Shown: positions 9,830 to 61,917 of the stretch, in pieces | How positions within the stretch are numbered: the first letter of the stretch is position 1 | Layout: each line of letters begins with the position of its first letter | Origin: Methanobacteriota archaeon | Lineage (GTDB): Archaea; Thermoplasmatota; E2; DHVEG-1 | DNA length: 64,000 bases | Direction of reading: 5' to 3' | Assembly: GCA_043806635.1 (NCBI GenBank) | Contig: JAZDGT010000002.1 | Span: 41,974 to 105,973 of the forward strand | Translations under genes and position numbers: made by a program | Notes under the pieces: generated by a model | Told to the model about the DNA's origin: nothing | Databases searched by the model: none | The model's input: only the letters and a program-made list of their open reading frames with translations

Positions 9830-11110
9830 TTATTGATTTTTTTCACTAGTTTTTTCTGAGCTTTTAATAACGATTTGGGCAAGAGCACCAGTTTTTGTAT
9901 AGAGTTGCACTTCAAAGACCAATCCAGCGGTGTCAAAGAAGACCGTACAGGTATCATCTTTATTATAGACTGGTTTTCGTATGACTCGTGTGTTTTCAAA
10001 GCAAGGACTATACACAGAATCATATTGGAGTACGGTTTTCGCGGCTTTTGCTGCGGCATGGATGACAAGGTTATCAATTGGTTTTGTAGTAGTTGTTTTA
10101 CTTCTTTCAGCAACAAGTTTCATTTCAGTTTTGGTGAATCCCGTCGCAGGTTCAGCGATCGTAACAGTGACTTGATCAGTATACACTAGTATATCTCGTG
10201 AGGGGTCAGTTATAGCGAGGCGTTTCCCGTTGTAGAGATCCCCGGGTACGGTGAGGTTGAGGAAGTAGGTGCTGAGGAATCGTTGCGTGGTGACGTACGT
10301 GTTTGCTCCTAACCCTCCTGCTTTTGGATCATTAAGCCAGAACCCGTACACATTAAGTTGCGTTGGTGGCAGCCACGCGTTCCGATCAGTATGGATGCCT
10401 CGGATCGTCATCCAGTTGTTGTAATTTCCACCTGTAGGGATGGCGATGGGGACATGGTTCGGATGACCGGGTTTGGGAACATCGACATCTCGGATGTTGT
10501 TGTAGTAGTTGACGGGGTAGTCGAGCCAGATGCAGATCTGTTTCAGGACATCGTTCGCGTTGGTGCTAGCATACGGTGAGAAAAAGTACCCGTAAATCCA
10601 CCCATGTCCATAGTCGTCAATTTCGTTATTCAATCCTGAGGTGAGTTCACTTCCATTAATAATGTTATCAGTTCCTTTATAGGTGTTGTAGAGGGTTTGT
10701 TCGTTGTAGACATCGGGTGGCCCTTCAGGGTTCATTGTCTGATTCCACATGAGGTAGTCCATCATCATTTTCATCGTCATCGCACCTGTATCTATTTGAG
10801 AGAGGTAAAAGGGGAAGTCTTTCAAGTCCCTATAGTGGATATCTAAAATAAGATCACGAATGATGGTTCCATTATTGATATCATCAGTGGTGACTTGATA
10901 ATCGTACACCTTGACTGATTCATGAGTATCTCGTCCGATAAATCGAAGCATATCACCAACATTAAAATCACTCCCAGGATACAATTGAAGGGAGTATATG
11001 TTATCAAACGCGTGTGCACACCATTTCATACCTGTGTTAAGATTACTGATTTCTACTGTGATGTTGAATACTGGGCTTTGATTCTGATAATATACTGATC
11101 CAGTGAGTAT
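9830..11110 (-). other. Shared C-terminal module, copy 3 (last 426 aa).
   Basis: ILTGSVYYQNQSPVFNITV, HYRDLKDFPFYLSQIDTGAMTMKMMMDYLMWN, GHPNHVPIAIP, NNWMTIRGIHTDR, YGFWLNDP, KRLAITDPS. Confidence 0.85.
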
Positions 11111-44848: not shown

Positions 44849-46015
44849 CTATAATAAACTGTTAAAAAGATAACCGACTAACAGGACTTGAGGGACGGTA
44901 AGAAGAGGCAACCATATCGCTGCTTTATGCCCAATATTACTCCAGATAAGCCCGATCTCAGTCATATCGGTCGAAACCCCTGCCATCAGGAAGGTTACGC
45001 TATTCCCAAACGCGCGGGTCTGATTAAAAATCTCAAACGCAAGCGGGGAGCTCCCTTCTGAGCAGACTTCAATGACGGTTGCAAAAAACAACGTGACAAG
45101 AAGTCCTAGTAATGATGGTCCCATATATGTCATGAATATATCGTGAGGAATGTATGCTCGTGCAACTGCTGCCATCACCATGCCGATGAGCAGCCACCAC
45201 ATCACCATTTTTGTCAGTGACCATGATCCTTTCAATGTTCCTTTGGTTGCTTCCCACACATTATGACGGGTGAAACGGAACTCGTCCCATCGTCGTCGTA
45301 TATCTTGAAGAATAGAAAAATCTGTTAAAACTGGTCTGTCTTCGCCTTTATTACACTGCTGACATTCAACAAGTCCTTTTCGCTCAAGCATCTGATACAG
45401 TAAACCGGTGATAATCGCTATGATAAGGGCTGAGATAACAATGAAAAATGCTTTCCAACCAAAAAACCCGAATAAAAGAATTGTGATGGGAAGGTTAGCC
45501 CAGGGTGACGCAAGTAAGAATGCAACCACTGATGAGGTACTTGCTCCTTTTCTATAAAGCTCGATAGAGATCGCTAAAATCCCATGAGAGCATGCACTCA
45601 TAAGAAAACCAAAAATGACCGAGTAGATAATAGTGCGTTTCTGATGCCGGGAAAGATATTTTTGAATATAGGTTCGTGGAACGAAATAATCAATGATACC
45701 ACCGATAAGAAATCCAATGAGGACTGCCCACCAGATTAACCGAAGGTAATCGATAAACCCGTTATAGTATGGATTAAGGAATGGGATAAAATAACTGATC
45801 ACGACTGAGACAACAACAAATGAGAGAACGATGTAGAGTCGCTCTTGGTACCATTTCTTCGCTGGTTTGGCACAAGATGGGCAAGAGGGCTCGGGTTGAA
45901 GATTGTGTTCTTTCTCATATTTTTTTATGCAGTCGTTACAACAAAAATAGTGGCCATGCGCAGGTATTGTTCCTTTCATACCACAGATGGGGTCGATACG
46001 CTCATCAGTTTTCAT
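44849..46015 (-). CDS. Permease of the DUF318/ArsP-like family with an N-terminal YHS/TRASH-type metal-binding motif.
   Basis: DPICGMKGTIPAHGHYFCCNDCIKKY followed by about 8 TM helices. ATG at 46015 preceded by GGAG; the ORF track starts at 46099. Confidence 0.6.
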   Translation of the reverse strand: MKTDERIDPICGMKGTIPAHGHYFCCNDCIKKYEKEHNLQPEPSCPSCAKPAKKWYQERLYIVLSFVVVSVVISYFIPFLNPYYNGFIDYLRLIWWAVLIGFLIGGIIDYFVPRTYIQKYLSRHQKRTIIYSVIFGFLMSACSHGILAISIELYRKGASTSSVVAFLLASPWANLPITILLFGFFGWKAFFIVISALIIAIITGLLYQMLERKGLVECQQCNKGEDRPVLTDFSILQDIRRRWDEFRFTRHNVWEATKGTLKGSWSLTKMVMWWLLIGMVMAAVARAYIPHDIFMTYMGPSLLGLLVTLFFATVIEVCSEGSSPLAFEIFNQTRAFGNSVTFLMAGVSTDMTEIGLIWSNIGHKAAIWLPLLTVPQVLLVGYLFNSLL

Positions 46016-58991: not shown

Positions 58992-59561
58992 CTATTTTTT
59001 CAAATTTTTCTTCTTATGAATAAGCCCCAGCGAGATAAGCTCTTCTGATAACTTATCAACAGCCAAGGAGACATCAGTGATTTTTCGAGCACCCGTGCAC
59101 ACGATTTTTCCTGAGCCGAACAGTAACATAGCTACCTTCGGTTCTTTTATTCTATAGACCAGTCCTGGGAACTGCTCCGGTTCGTATTCAACGTTTTCTA
59201 AGCCTAGTGCCATCGCAACCTCATTAAGGTTTAGTTCACCACCAAGATCAGAGATGGCAACAATGTTTTGAATAACAATACTGGGGTCTTTGTATACGTC
59301 GACACCAAGTTTTTTGAGTTTATCAGCGATAATTCGGATCGTTGTCCTCACGTCTTCAATATTTTTTGCACCAGTACAGTTCGCTTTCCCACTGCGGAAC
59401 AATAATGTGGCAGTTTTTGGGCTAGCAAGACGATAGACCAAACCAGGGAACTGCTCCGGCTCATATTCTGCTTCTTCTAATGATTGCGCTATTACGTCTA
59501 AATCCAACTTGTCGGAGAAGGATGTGGACGCAACAATATTTTCTACGATTACTTCCGGCAT
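58992..59561 (-). CDS. tbp: TATA-box-binding protein.
   Basis: Two TBP repeats: VENIVASTSF...LDLD...EYEPEQFPGLVYRL...LLFRSGKANCTGAK and IQNIVAISDL...EYEPEQFPGLVYRI...LLFGSGKIVCTGAR. Confidence 0.92.
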   Translation of the reverse strand: MPEVIVENIVASTSFSDKLDLDVIAQSLEEAEYEPEQFPGLVYRLASPKTATLLFRSGKANCTGAKNIEDVRTTIRIIADKLKKLGVDVYKDPSIVIQNIVAISDLGGELNLNEVAMALGLENVEYEPEQFPGLVYRIKEPKVAMLLFGSGKIVCTGARKITDVSLAVDKLSEELISLGLIHKKKNLKK

Positions 59562-59579
59562 ATTTTTTCCTCCATCTTC

Positions 59580-60011
59580 TTATTTTATTCCATATGATAA
59601 TAGGTCATTCGTTATGTGTTCAAACGCACGAGTAACGTCATCAACGTTTGTTCCGGTGCAGACGATTTTTCCAGTATCAAAAAGGAGTACACTGATGTTG
59701 TGGTTATCATTTTTTTTGTAGATTAATCCGGGGAATTCAGAAGGATTATACGATGCTTTCATAACTCCAAGTGATTTCGCGAGTGCAGATAAATCAATTT
59801 TTTTCTGGAGTTCTTGTGATGCAACGATACTCTGTACGAGGATCTCTGGGTTTTCTTTCACAGGAAAACCAGCGGCGTGTAAGAGTTTTATGGTGGTATG
59901 AATGATGGTCTCAGTATCGTGTATGGTTTTTGTTCCCGTGCACATAAGAGTACCGTTTGGGAAAATCATAACTGCAGCCTGGACTGGCGTAGTTTTATGG
60001 ATGACAACCAA
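59580..60011 (-). CDS. Divergent TBP paralog. The ORF-track model starts at a TTG at 60011, but TBP homology continues in frame upstream to about 60134 with no canonical start, so this may be a pseudogene or a mis-assembled 5' end.
   Basis: MIFPNGTLMCTGTK and LLFDTGKIVCTGTN repeat cores. The upstream in-frame sequence reads VDTTRFTIENIVVTTKIADAFDLDHVSRTF (TBP N-terminus). SD GGGAGGGAGG and two TTTATATA boxes lie at 60137..60172. Confidence 0.6.
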   Translation of the reverse strand: MVVIHKTTPVQAAVMIFPNGTLMCTGTKTIHDTETIIHTTIKLLHAAGFPVKENPEILVQSIVASQELQKKIDLSALAKSLGVMKASYNPSEFPGLIYKKNDNHNISVLLFDTGKIVCTGTNVDDVTRAFEHITNDLLSYGIK

Positions 60012-60229
60012 TGAGGTCTCAGCAGGATTACGGTGTGAATCAGGAAACGTCCTTGAAACATGATCAAGATCAAAAGCGTCTGCAATCTTTGTGGTAACAA
60101 CTATGTTTTCGATTGTGAATCTGGTCGTATCAACAGCCTCCCTCCCTATAGTATATAAAGCCAGTATATAAAGGTTTATTCGCGTGAAAAAGGGCGTTCT
60201 TCTTAGAAAAAAGCACGGTGTCGTGGTTA

Positions 60230-60967
60230 CTACCCGACTTTATCTAGATCAAGATCAATGTCGTCATCATCTTGTTGTTTCTTTATTTGTTTCGGTTTCC
60301 CATGGTTCATTTCATCGAGTAACCCGCGGAATTCATTGGTTTTATCACCGATTCGTTGTTCACAGCTTGCGACTACTAATTCTCCGCGTGTTTTTTCGAT
60401 GATGCCGCGGACCATATCCTGCTTCTTTTTTATGGGGACGAGTGCAGAGGGGTAACTAAAACTCATGACCGCATCATAGATCCGATCCATGTGTTGTAAG
60501 TACTCATTCGCTCGTGTGGTGTCTCCTTCGAGCATGAAATCGAGCGCGCCTCGGCGGAGTTCACCAACGACGTCGCATAATCCCATGAGGTAGGAACTGT
60601 ACGTAGTTTGAAGCGTGTCAGGATCGGGTAACTCTTTTCCTTGCATAATATTGTATAAGCATTGGACTTCGACGAACTCCTGCGCGGCGTTCTCGACAAA
60701 ACCCGCATGAACAATATCAGGATGATCCTTGGTGAGCTCATACAACTGTGCTATTTTCGTGGAGGCTTGCGTGATAAAGCTTTCTGCTTCAGTGAGGTGA
60801 TCTTGATGGAGATGCTGGATTGCTTTTCTGCATGCGATGATGACGTCTCGTGAATGCTTCAGTGCTTCATCTCGAGCCTTATCTTTTTCGTTGATGTGAT
60901 GATCGATTTTCTCGATGATATGATCAAGGTTCTTTAACGCGTCGTTCACGTTCTCTTTTTCGCTCAT
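60230..60967 (-). CDS. Translin-family protein.
   Basis: YSSYLMGLCDVVGELRR (translin-type GL.D..GEL.R) in an all-helical protein. ATG at 60967 overlaps the serA stop as ATGA. The ORF track starts at 61102. Confidence 0.65.
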   Translation of the reverse strand: MSEKENVNDALKNLDHIIEKIDHHINEKDKARDEALKHSRDVIIACRKAIQHLHQDHLTEAESFITQASTKIAQLYELTKDHPDIVHAGFVENAAQEFVEVQCLYNIMQGKELPDPDTLQTTYSSYLMGLCDVVGELRRGALDFMLEGDTTRANEYLQHMDRIYDAVMSFSYPSALVPIKKKQDMVRGIIEKTRGELVVASCEQRIGDKTNEFRGLLDEMNHGKPKQIKKQQDDDDIDLDLDKVG

Positions 60968-61917
60968 TTTCCTTCCATCATTTTTTTGTTTACCCAAAAC
61001 TCTGGTGTCTTCCCGGATAACGCAATCATCATTTGTTCTGCACAGATTTTTCCTGCCCGGAGCTGCCCTTCTTTCGTAGATGCACCAATGTGCGGGGTGC
61101 ATACGACTTTTGGATGATTCACAAGCTCTTTGAACACAGGTGGTTCAGTCTCGTAGACGTCAAGCCCAGCAGCAGAGACTTTTCCATTGTTCAAATACTT
61201 CACCAATGCTTTCTCATCAATGGTTCCGCCACGGGCACAGTTTATCAAGATGACACCGGTTTTCATGTGTTCAAATTCCGGTTCTTTAAGTGTTGCTCCT
61301 TCGGTTTTTATAAAGGGGATATGTAGCGAGATATAATCTGATTCTTTGAGGAGTTTTTCTAGGGGAACGATGGTGATCTTTGGTGCGGGTGACTTCTGGA
61401 TGTACTTGTCATAGGCGAGCACGTTCATGTTAAAGGCAAGTGCTCGTTTCCCAAGCTCGGTACCAATGCGCCCTATTCCAATAATACCCAGGGTTTTCTT
61501 GTTGAGTTCAACACCTTTAAATGTTTTCTTCTCCCACATTCCTTGTTTCATGGAATGATCCGCTTGCGGGATCGATCGCGATGCTGCAATCATTAGTCCG
61601 AACGCGAGCTCTGCGACGCTTTCAGTTGTTCCTGTTGGTGCGTTCACCACCTTAATGTTATGTTTCGATGCGGTGGGGAGGTCTATATTATCAACCCCAA
61701 TGCCTGCACGACCAATAACTTTGAGGTTTCCTTTCGCACCAGCCTCAACCACCTCAGCAGTTGCCTTCGTCCGACTGCGTACCATTAACCCATCATACTT
61801 TGAAATCTCATTTACAAGGGTTGCAGGATCCATCTCGTTAAAAGTGACGTCATGTCCTGCAGTTTTTATTTGTTGAATAACATCATTTTCAATCTTATCG
61901 GTAATCAATATTCTCAT
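60964..61917 (-). CDS. serA: D-3-phosphoglycerate dehydrogenase / D-2-hydroxyacid dehydrogenase (short form, no ACT domain).
   Basis: NAD motif GIIGIGRIGTELGKRA, NCARGGTID, TPHIGAST. Confidence 0.8.
   Translation of the reverse strand: MRILITDKIENDVIQQIKTAGHDVTFNEMDPATLVNEISKYDGLMVRSRTKATAEVVEAGAKGNLKVIGRAGIGVDNIDLPTASKHNIKVVNAPTGTTESVAELAFGLMIAASRSIPQADHSMKQGMWEKKTFKGVELNKKTLGIIGIGRIGTELGKRALAFNMNVLAYDKYIQKSPAPKITIVPLEKLLKESDYISLHIPFIKTEGATLKEPEFEHMKTGVILINCARGGTIDEKALVKYLNNGKVSAAGLDVYETEPPVFKELVNHPKVVCTPHIGASTKEGQLRAGKICAEQMMIALSGKTPEFWVNKKMMEGK

What the first reader, a model, noticed from the sequence alone, without database searches (positions are those of the whole stretch)
59580..60172. 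Second TBP gene has full-length homology but no canonical start codon for its N-terminal repeat
**Seen in sequence.**
- Directly upstream of tbp lies a divergent paralog. Its TBP-fold homology starts at about 60134 (VDTTRFTIENIVVTTKIADAFDLDHVSRTF...).
- The frame is open from 60239, but the first ATG, GTG or TTG in frame is the TTG at 60011. Starting there would delete about 40 residues of the first repeat.
- A strong SD (GGGAGGGAGG, 60137..60146) and two TTTATATA boxes (60152..60159 and 60165..60172) sit exactly where a full-length gene would need them.
- A TTG at 60133..60131 is correctly spaced from the SD but lies in a different reading frame from the TBP ORF and hits a stop after 10 codons.

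**Inference.** There are three possible explanations:
- a 1-nt indel, either a real pseudogenising frameshift or an assembly error, somewhere between about 60100 and 60133
- non-canonical initiation
- programmed frameshifting
Basis: partly seen in the sequence, partly recalled or inferred. Interest (0 to 1): 0.55.

Follow-up and report, generated by a model that had tools for sequence, protein, structure and literature searches.

The report
TBP paralog start codon mutated to ACG
A fast-evolving extra copy of the archaeal TATA-binding protein gene lacks a normal start codon because one base change turned its ancestral ATG into ACG; this is an ordinary start-codon mutation, not a frameshift or recoding signal.

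Summary
The minus-strand frame 60239..59580 encodes a full two-repeat TBP, and its first in-frame ATG/GTG/TTG is the TTG at 60011.

The gene is the upstream member of a "divergent TBP paralog, then canonical tbp" pair. I counted this pair in 36 of 43 other near-complete genomes of the same family of uncultured Thermoplasmata.

- All 17 same-family orthologs aligned at DNA level read ATG, four codons, then [I/V/T]-E-N.
- The window reads ACG (60128..60126), four codons, then ATC GAA AAC, in the same frame and with no indel.
- The closest full-length relative (P0018, 52% identical) begins MTGYTIENIV, against the window's T-TRFTIENIV.
- The GGAGG lies 8 nt before ACG, which is within this genome's preferred spacing. 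It lies only 3 nt before the out-of-frame TTG at 60133.
- The 38 codons after ACG are as conserved as the rest of the gene and are predicted to form S1-H1-S2 of the TBP saddle.

So the start codon changed from ATG to ACG by a T>C change at 60127, recently. Expression is now lost or weak. A consensus error cannot be excluded without reads. An indel, frameshifting and a true start at 60011 are poorly supported. Interest is low.

The parts
59580..60128 (-). Divergent TBP paralog, read from the ancestral start position (ACG) to the TAA stop: 182 codons plus stop
   Evidence: Two PF00352 repeats. E 1.6e-26 to the solved TBP 2z8u. AF2 model with pLDDT 93.3. Collinear with orthologs.
60126..60128 (-). 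ACG codon at the position where all orthologs have the ATG start; inferred T>C change at 60127
   Evidence: 17 of 17 same-family orthologs read ATG + 4 codons + [IVT]EN. All paralogs with a complete 5' end in 28 of 29 related loci start with ATG there; L002 is cut by its contig end. P0018/P0165 start with M at this column.
60137..60146 (-). Shine-Dalgarno-like GGGAGGGAGG; its last GGAGG (60141..60137) lies 8 nt before ACG
   Evidence: The genome-wide GGAGG-to-start spacer peaks at 7-11 nt, with 29 cases at 8 nt and 4 at 3 nt. The motif is conserved in orthologs.
60152..60159 (-). TATA box 2 (TTTATATA), starting 31 nt before ACG
   Evidence: Conserved in all aligned orthologs. 29-33 nt is the TATA-to-start distance peak of genes without an SD in this genome.
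60165..60172 (-). TATA box 1 (TTTATATA), starting 44 nt before ACG
   Evidence: Conserved in orthologs, where CGAAA precedes it. 44-47 nt is the distance peak of SD-led genes in this genome.
60009..60011 (-). First canonical in-frame start (TTG); no SD upstream; a start here would give a 143-aa protein lacking S1-H1-S2
   Evidence: The model places S1 at residues 5-14, H1 at 21-27 and S2 at 31-33.
60101..60133 (-). Out-of-frame TTG plus 9 codons and a TAG; only 3 nt after GGAGG
   Evidence: A 3-nt spacing is rare in this genome. No ortholog has an equivalent.
58992..59561 (-). Canonical tbp, 18 nt downstream of the paralog's stop, with its own GGAGG (59573..59569) 7 nt before the ATG
   Evidence: PF00352 at 197 bits. 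83-95% identical across genera of the family.

Best explanation
The gene is the upstream, fast-evolving member of a conserved two-gene operon (TBP paralog, then canonical tbp) in an uncultured Thermoplasmata archaeon. Its ancestral ATG start codon has become ACG (60128..60126) through a single T>C transition at 60127. The reading frame, both TATA boxes and the Shine-Dalgarno sequence are unchanged, so no indel or recoding is involved.

The change is recent relative to the split from the nearest known relatives. The 38 codons that would go untranslated without this start are as well conserved as the rest of the gene, and the ORF has no other defect.

Inferred consequence: translation of the full-length paralog is abolished or cut to the low level that a near-cognate ACG can give behind a well-placed SD. 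That makes this a young start-loss allele, either a hypomorph or an incipient pseudogene. The downstream essential tbp keeps its own SD and is unaffected.
For: Shown by tool results:
- The tandem paralog-tbp pair is syntenic across the family and order. By my count of adjacent hits it is present in 36 of 43 other genomes that are at least 90% complete.
- All 17 same-family orthologs anchored on the start read ATG + 4 codons + [I/V/T]EN, behind the same TATA-TATA-GGAGGG upstream block. The window reads ACG ACC AGA TTC ACA ATC GAA AAC.
- All paralogs with a complete 5' end in 28 of 29 related loci start with ATG at that position.
- The closest full-length relatives, P0018 and P0165 (52% identity), start MTGYTIENIV, with M in the ACG column.
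- GGAGG lies 8 nt before ACG, within the genome's 7-11 nt optimum.
- The TATA boxes lie 44 and 31 nt before ACG, matching this genome's weak SD-led and leaderless distance peaks.
- N-terminal residues 2-39 are 57.9% identical to P0018, against 50.7% for the rest. The ratio of N-terminal to remaining conservation is 0.99, inside the orthologs' range of 0.94-1.22.
- The AF2 model has pLDDT 93.3, and residues 5-33 form S1-H1-S2.
- The window's terminal branch (0.54) is only modestly longer than its sister's (0.41) and is typical of this paralog class.

Against: - No reads and no second assembly of this species are available. Its 90%-identity protein cluster has a single member, so the C at 60127 is unconfirmed.
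- The closest relative by identity (P0003, 60%, 142 aa) is called from an M aligned with the window's TTG at 60011. If that contig also lacks an upstream ATG, the loss could be older and shared. That would favour maintained non-AUG initiation.
- An intact 182-codon ORF is equally compatible with a gene that still functions.
Confidence: 0.6

Rival explanations
1. ACG is a maintained, functional near-cognate start codon. The strong SD, 8 nt upstream, drives low-level initiation with initiator tRNA, so the paralog is made at a deliberately low level.
For: - ACG differs from AUG by one base and sits exactly at the ancestral start with optimal SD spacing.
- The ORF and its N-terminal 38 codons show no decay.
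- ACG-initiated protein carrying an N-terminal Met was detected in E. coli (10.1101/063800).
- About 30% of putative alternative initiation sites in H. volcanii Ribo-seq were near-cognate codons (PMC7261190).
- P0003's truncated gene call might reflect the same missing ATG in a sister lineage.
Against: - Every ortholog whose 5' end could be inspected has ATG there, in DNA or as a called M start.
- The tree puts the window next to the ATG-starting P0018 pair, with P0003 outside (99/83 support). A shared ancestral ACG is therefore not parsimonious.
- This genome shows no wider use of ACG starts: this gene is the only ACG candidate among 1273 long ORFs.
- In E. coli, ACG was in the 57-codon group at 0.1-1% of AUG.
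Confidence: 0.15
2. The C at 60127 is a consensus or sequencing error, or a minority strain allele fixed by the assembler. The real population carries ATG and the gene is normal.
For: - The genome is an 83-contig, 86%-complete metagenome-type assembly.
- This version of the protein has been seen only once in the 15-billion-protein collection.
- Everything but this one base is what an intact gene would show.
Against: - The site is not in a homopolymer or repeat (gttgatACGacc).
- From general knowledge, substitution errors in assembled consensus are rare.
- It sits in a 120-kb contig with no nearby anomalies.
- It cannot be tested here.
Confidence: 0.15
3. The true product starts at the TTG at 60011, giving a 143-aa N-terminally truncated paralog, as in the gene call for P0003.
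For: It is the first canonical in-frame start. P0003 (60% identity) is called from the aligned position.
Against: - There is no SD before 60011.
- The truncation would remove S1, H1 and S2 of the saddle, which are modelled at pLDDT 89-98.
- The 38 upstream codons remain open and are 57.9% identical to P0018.
- The promoter and SD lie 120 nt further upstream and are aligned with the ACG.
- P0003 comes from a 1183-nt contig, and its call may be a fallback or an effect of the contig edge.
Confidence: 0.04
4. A 1-nt indel, real or from assembly, between about 60100 and 60133 has separated a TTG start at 60133 from the TBP frame.
For: A TTG lies just after the SD, one base out of frame.
Against: - The TBP frame from ACG has exactly the ortholog spacing of start + 4 codons + IEN, and a Thr second codon as in 7 of 17 orthologs. 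No indel is needed.
- A TTG start would make the N-terminus 2 residues longer than in every ortholog.
- It would leave a 3-nt SD spacer, seen in 4 of 197 cases.
- There is no homopolymer run there.
Confidence: 0.03
5. A programmed -1 ribosomal frameshift moves ribosomes from the TTG (60133) frame into the TBP frame before the TAG at 60103.
For: A two-frame layout exists, with a stop 10 codons after the TTG.
Against: - There is no X XXY YYZ slippery heptamer in the 33-nt overlap (read).
- The region folds less well than shuffled controls (z = +1.37; 188 of 200 shuffles fold at least as well).
- There is no Rfam match at its gathering score; the only hit scored 16 bits against a threshold of 86.
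- No ortholog has the arrangement.
Confidence: 0.01

Closest known systems
Multiple TBP paralogs in archaea (for example the TBP families of Halobacterium and the TBP1-3 genes of Methanosarcina; from my own knowledge, with reviews PMC5501381 and PMC7221094 found but not read in detail)
   Same: An extra two-repeat TBP-fold protein sits beside a conserved housekeeping TBP. This genome carries four TBP-family genes.
   Different: - Here the paralog is fixed in an operon directly upstream of the canonical tbp.
- It evolves roughly ten times faster (terminal branches 0.3-1.25 against about 0.03).
- In this subclade it lacks the first DNA-kinking Phe of repeat 1.
- In this genome it has lost its ATG.
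Start-codon-loss alleles and young pseudogenes in prokaryotic genomes
   Same: A single base substitution in the initiation codon of an otherwise intact, probably dispensable paralog.
   Different: The usual further decay (stops, frameshifts) is absent. Because the substituted codon is a near-cognate behind a strong SD, residual expression is possible.
Natural non-AUG/GUG/UUG starts, for example the AUU start of E. coli infC (my own knowledge), and measured ACG initiation in E. coli (10.1101/063800)
   Same: A one-base variant of AUG at a well-placed SD can initiate with Met at a low level.
   Different: The infC AUU is conserved among relatives and serves autoregulation. Here ACG is unique to one genome, while every ortholog whose 5' end could be inspected keeps ATG. 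No archaeal ACG start has been shown, as far as my literature searches reached.
Genomic ACG start codons restored to AUG by C-to-U RNA editing in plant organelles (my own knowledge)
   Same: A genomic ACG sits at a conserved start position.
   Different: No mRNA C-to-U editing system is known in archaea and nothing here suggests one. It is listed only as a resemblance.

Membership tests
TBP family (Pfam PF00352) | Two tandem TBP repeats | tested here: met
   111 bits over two stretches for the whole protein. Repeat 1 scores 45.1 bits and repeat 2 scores 69.2 bits, both over the 22.9-bit cut-off.
TBP family (Pfam PF00352) | Saddle fold: S1-H1-S2-S3-S4-S5-H2, twice | tested here: met
   The AF2 model (pLDDT 93.3, pTM 0.84) shows the expected order of strands and helices in both halves. 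Sequence match to the solved TBPs 2z8u and 1pcz, E 1.6e-26 and 2.9e-24. The fold is predicted, not solved.
Canonical TATA-bending TBP | Four DNA-kinking phenylalanines, two per repeat (established knowledge from TBP-DNA structures) | tested here: not met
   Three of four are kept. The Phe of the QFPG motif in repeat 1 is Thr38 here, Thr in P0018 and Ala in the G044 ortholog. F56, F132 and F150 are kept.
Intact protein-coding gene | ATG/GTG/TTG at the orthologous start | tested here: not met
   ACG at 60128..60126, where 17 of 17 aligned orthologs have ATG.
Gene with a maintained non-canonical start codon | Near-cognate codon at the orthologous start with a properly spaced SD | tested here: met
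   ACG lies 8 nt after GGAGG. The genome's spacer optimum is 7-11 nt.
Gene with a maintained non-canonical start codon | The non-canonical codon is conserved in related lineages | tested here: not met
   All inspected orthologs have ATG, or a called M start in P0018/P0165. The DNA of the nearest lineages (P0003, P0018) could not be fetched.
Gene with a maintained non-canonical start codon | Protein N-terminus or initiating ribosomes observed at the codon | not testable with these tools
   The organism is uncultured and no proteomic or Ribo-seq data are at hand.
Programmed -1 ribosomal frameshift | Slippery heptamer plus a downstream stimulatory structure, conserved in relatives | tested here: not met
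   No X XXY YYZ heptamer in 60133..60101. Fold z = +1.37. Orthologs use a single frame.
Pseudogene | A disabling lesion plus signs of relaxed constraint (further stops or frameshifts, excess change at conserved sites) | tested here: inconclusive
   - The start codon is lost, but there are no stops or frameshifts.
- The window has 4 departures from 37 conserved columns, the same number as P0018 and the G044 ortholog.
- Two window-only changes (Y33R, P39S) fall in the N-terminal 39 residues.
- The terminal branch is 0.54, against 0.41 for the sister.

The most novel reading that the evidence does not exclude
An archaeon translates a TBP paralog from a genomic ACG codon, by near-cognate initiation helped by a strong, optimally spaced Shine-Dalgarno sequence. 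This keeps a transcription-factor paralog at a very low level, and selection maintains the arrangement rather than it being a fresh lesion.
Probability: 0.15. Interest if true: 0.5.

Novelty: new member of a known kind. Interest (0 to 1): 0.25.

Why it matters
The main value is for annotation.
- Standard gene callers give a 143-aa truncated protein from the TTG at 60011.
- The stored call for this genome gives a 199-aa protein that starts at ATA 60179 and runs through its own TATA boxes.
- The biologically meaningful unit is 182 codons from the mutated start at 60128. It should be flagged as start-codon-mutated.

If the ACG proved to be real and shared with sister lineages, it would be a rare natural test case for near-cognate initiation in archaea.

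The wider context may deserve more attention than the missing start: a family-wide operon of a fast-evolving TBP paralog and the canonical tbp, behind a strongly conserved double TATA box.

Tried and rejected
- **P0003 DNA.** The scan's own notes hold no look-alike. Whether that lineage also lacks the ATG stays open.
- **Closer relatives in reference genomes.** The GTDB representative genomes hold nothing closer than 43% identity (G044).
- **Genome-wide ACG starts.** I scanned for GGAGG, 6-11 nt, then an in-frame codon, with no canonical start for at least 15 codons. It gave 32 hits spread over 23 codon types. The only ACG is this gene, so there is no evidence of general ACG use.
- **16S anti-SD.** I searched for the 16S 3' end and found no copy in the assembly.
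- **Frameshift signals.** There is no slippery site, no structure and no Rfam match at its gathering score (one 16-bit hit against a threshold of 86).
- **dN/dS.** This was not possible, because no DNA of relatives close enough to be unsaturated was available.
- **Literature.** A search for 'ACG start codon' plus archaea gave nothing relevant.

Full report
**Observation.** On the minus strand, the frame that encodes the TBP-like protein is open from 60239 to the TAA stop at 59582..59580. Pfam TBP (PF00352) matches twice. Repeat 1 covers 59877..60119 and repeat 2 covers 59601..59843 (converted to window coordinates).
- The first in-frame ATG/GTG/TTG is the TTG at 60011.
- A 76-codon stretch with no canonical start is unusual here. 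Only 12 of 1273 long ORFs in the genome have 70 or more such codons.
- One detail is wrong. The TTG at 60133 lies 3 nt after GGAGG. In this genome the spacer between GGAGG and the start peaks at 7-11 nt, and 3 nt occurs in 4 of 197 cases.

**Context.** The window lies in a 1.93-Mb, 83-contig, 86%-complete assembly. The named relatives that carry similar genes are uncultured Thermoplasmata or Thermoplasmatota MAGs.
- The genome has four TBP-family genes. Two of them are the tandem pair in the window.
- The downstream gene (58992..59561) is the housekeeping type. It is 83-95% identical across genera of the family.
- It starts 18 nt after the paralog's stop and has its own GGAGG 7 nt before its ATG.
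- The layout of a divergent paralog followed by canonical tbp recurs across the family and in sister families of the order. Counting adjacent hits, I find it in 36 of 43 other family genomes that are at least 90% complete.
- In a maximum-likelihood tree the canonical copies have terminal branches of about 0.03, while the upstream paralogs have 0.3-1.25. The paralog class as a whole is retained but evolves fast.

**What happened to the start.** I anchored the 5' regions of 17 same-family orthologs on their start codons.
- All show the same upstream block: CGAAA-TTTATAAA, then TTTATATA 13 nt later, then GGAGGG.
- All then read ATG, four codons, and [I/V/T]-E-N.
- The window has the same block, followed by ACG ACC AGA TTC ACA ATC GAA AAC.
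- The codon at the ortholog start position is therefore ACG (60128..60126). It is in the TBP frame, with the same four-codon spacing and a Thr second codon, as in 7 of the 17 orthologs.
- In 28 of 29 related loci, every paralog whose 5' end is present starts with ATG at this position. The exception, L002, is cut by its contig end.
- An exhaustive HMMER search of 1.84 billion representatives found two closer lineages. P0018/P0165 (52% identical, 187 aa) begin MTGYTIENIV, with the M aligned to the window's ACG-encoded T.
- A single T>C transition at 60127 explains the missing start. No indel is needed.

**Expression signals point at the ACG.**
- GGAGG (60141..60137) lies 8 nt before ACG, the second most frequent spacing in the genome.
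- The two TATA boxes start 44 and 31 nt before ACG.
- In this genome, TATA-like hexamers peak 44-47 nt before the ATG of SD-led genes. They peak 29-33 nt before the ATG of genes without an SD, which are presumably leaderless. These peaks are weak, so this is supporting evidence only.
- The RNA around the site is less structured than shuffled controls (z = +1.37), which suits an initiation region.

- *Indel with a TTG 60133 start.* The frame from ACG is already collinear with every ortholog. A TTG start would add two residues that no ortholog has and would use a 3-nt spacer.
- *Programmed frameshift.* Moving from the TTG frame into the TBP frame needs a -1 shift within 33 nt. There is no X XXY YYZ heptamer, no stimulatory structure, no Rfam match at its gathering score (one 16-bit hit against a threshold of 86) and no ortholog with two frames.
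- *Start at the TTG at 60011.* There is no SD there. The AlphaFold model (pLDDT 93.3) places S1 (residues 5-14), H1 (21-27) and S2 (31-33) in the segment that would be lost.

**Is the gene alive?**
- The 38 codons after ACG are 57.9% identical to P0018, against 50.7% for the rest.
- The ratio of N-terminal to remaining identity against family paralogs is 0.99, within the orthologs' own range of 0.94-1.22.
- At 37 well-conserved alignment columns the window departs four times, the same as P0018 and the G044 ortholog. Two window-only changes (Y33R, P39S) do fall in the N-terminal segment.
- Its terminal branch (0.54) is somewhat longer than its sister's (0.41) but ordinary for this class.
- So either the start was lost recently or the region is still translated. 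Sequence alone cannot separate the two.
- In E. coli, ACG lies outside the four near-cognates that give 1-2% of AUG and belongs to the group giving 0.1-1% in the first assay. It does yield Met-initiated protein (10.1101/063800).
- In Haloferax volcanii, about 30% of putative alternative initiation sites from Ribo-seq were near-cognate codons, unvalidated (PMC7261190).
- This genome shows no general ACG usage.
- I therefore favour a young start-loss allele with no or very low residual expression (0.6). A maintained ACG start (0.15) and a consensus error or polymorphism (0.15) come next.

**Caveat.** The relative closest by identity, P0003 (60%, 142 aa, from a 1183-nt JGI contig), is called from an M aligned exactly with the window's TTG at 60011.
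- That could mean its lineage also lacks an upstream ATG, or it could be a fallback or contig-edge call.
- The tree places P0003 outside the pair formed by the window and the ATG-starting P0018 group (99/83 support). This argues against a shared loss.
- P0003 is partial and the branches are long.

**Comparison with known things.** The protein is a member of the TBP family: it has two repeats, the predicted saddle fold, and E 1.6e-26 to the solved TBP 2z8u. It is not a canonical TBP in one respect. The first DNA-kinking Phe of repeat 1 is Thr38, a trait shared with its subclade. The role of that residue comes from established TBP-DNA structures, not from a test here. Extra TBP paralogs are well known in archaea, and start-codon-loss alleles are commonplace. 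A maintained archaeal ACG start would be unusual, but the evidence does not favour it.

**Verdict.** The public-style gene calls for this ORF are both wrong: the 143-aa call from the TTG at 60011, and the stored 199-aa call from ATA 60179, which runs through the gene's own promoter. Interest is low for the start-codon problem itself. The conserved paralog-tbp operon with its double TATA box is the more interesting by-product.

Noticed in passing
window 58992..60172 (minus strand) and loci L003-L039: A two-gene unit recurs across the family and order: a fast-evolving TBP paralog, a short gap (18 nt in the window), then canonical tbp with its own SD. I counted it in 36 of 43 other family genomes that are at least 90% complete, and it is present in sister families of the order. 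The paralog evolves about ten times faster than the canonical copy. My literature searches found no description of it.
   Followed up: partly
window 60137..60185 and the aligned upstream regions of L005-L039: The promoter of this operon is far better conserved across genera than the paralog protein: CGAAA + TTTATAAA, a second TTTATATA 13 nt later, then GGAGGG. The two TATA boxes lie at this genome's SD-led (44 nt) and leaderless (31 nt) distances from the start. Two TBP sites in front of the TBP operon suggest autoregulation or dual transcript forms. This was not tested.
   Followed up: partly
window 60015..60017 (Thr38 of the paralog): In the window's subclade of paralogs, the first DNA-kinking Phe of repeat 1 (the QFPG motif) is replaced: Thr here and in P0018, Ala in the G044 ortholog. 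The other three Phe are kept. This suggests asymmetric or altered DNA bending.
   Followed up: partly
window 60177..60179: The stored gene call for this ORF (199 aa, P0002) starts at an ATA codon upstream of both TATA boxes, so the predicted protein would include its own promoter. It is a mechanical call rather than a real N-terminus.
   Followed up: yes
window 60230..61102 (minus strand): The translin-family ORF (PF01997) as listed overlaps the upstream dehydrogenase-like gene by 139 nt. An internal ATG at 60967 forms an ATGA overlap with that gene's stop (60966..60964) and is the likelier start.
   Followed up: no
own genome, outside the window: contig C3 + strand near 10074; contig C82 + strand near 45007: Two other long ORFs have a GGAGG followed at 7-10 nt by an in-frame ATA or ATC, with no canonical start for 133 and 43 codons. 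The second begins with a lipoprotein-like ...LLAGC. They are possible further non-canonical or mutated starts.
   Followed up: no
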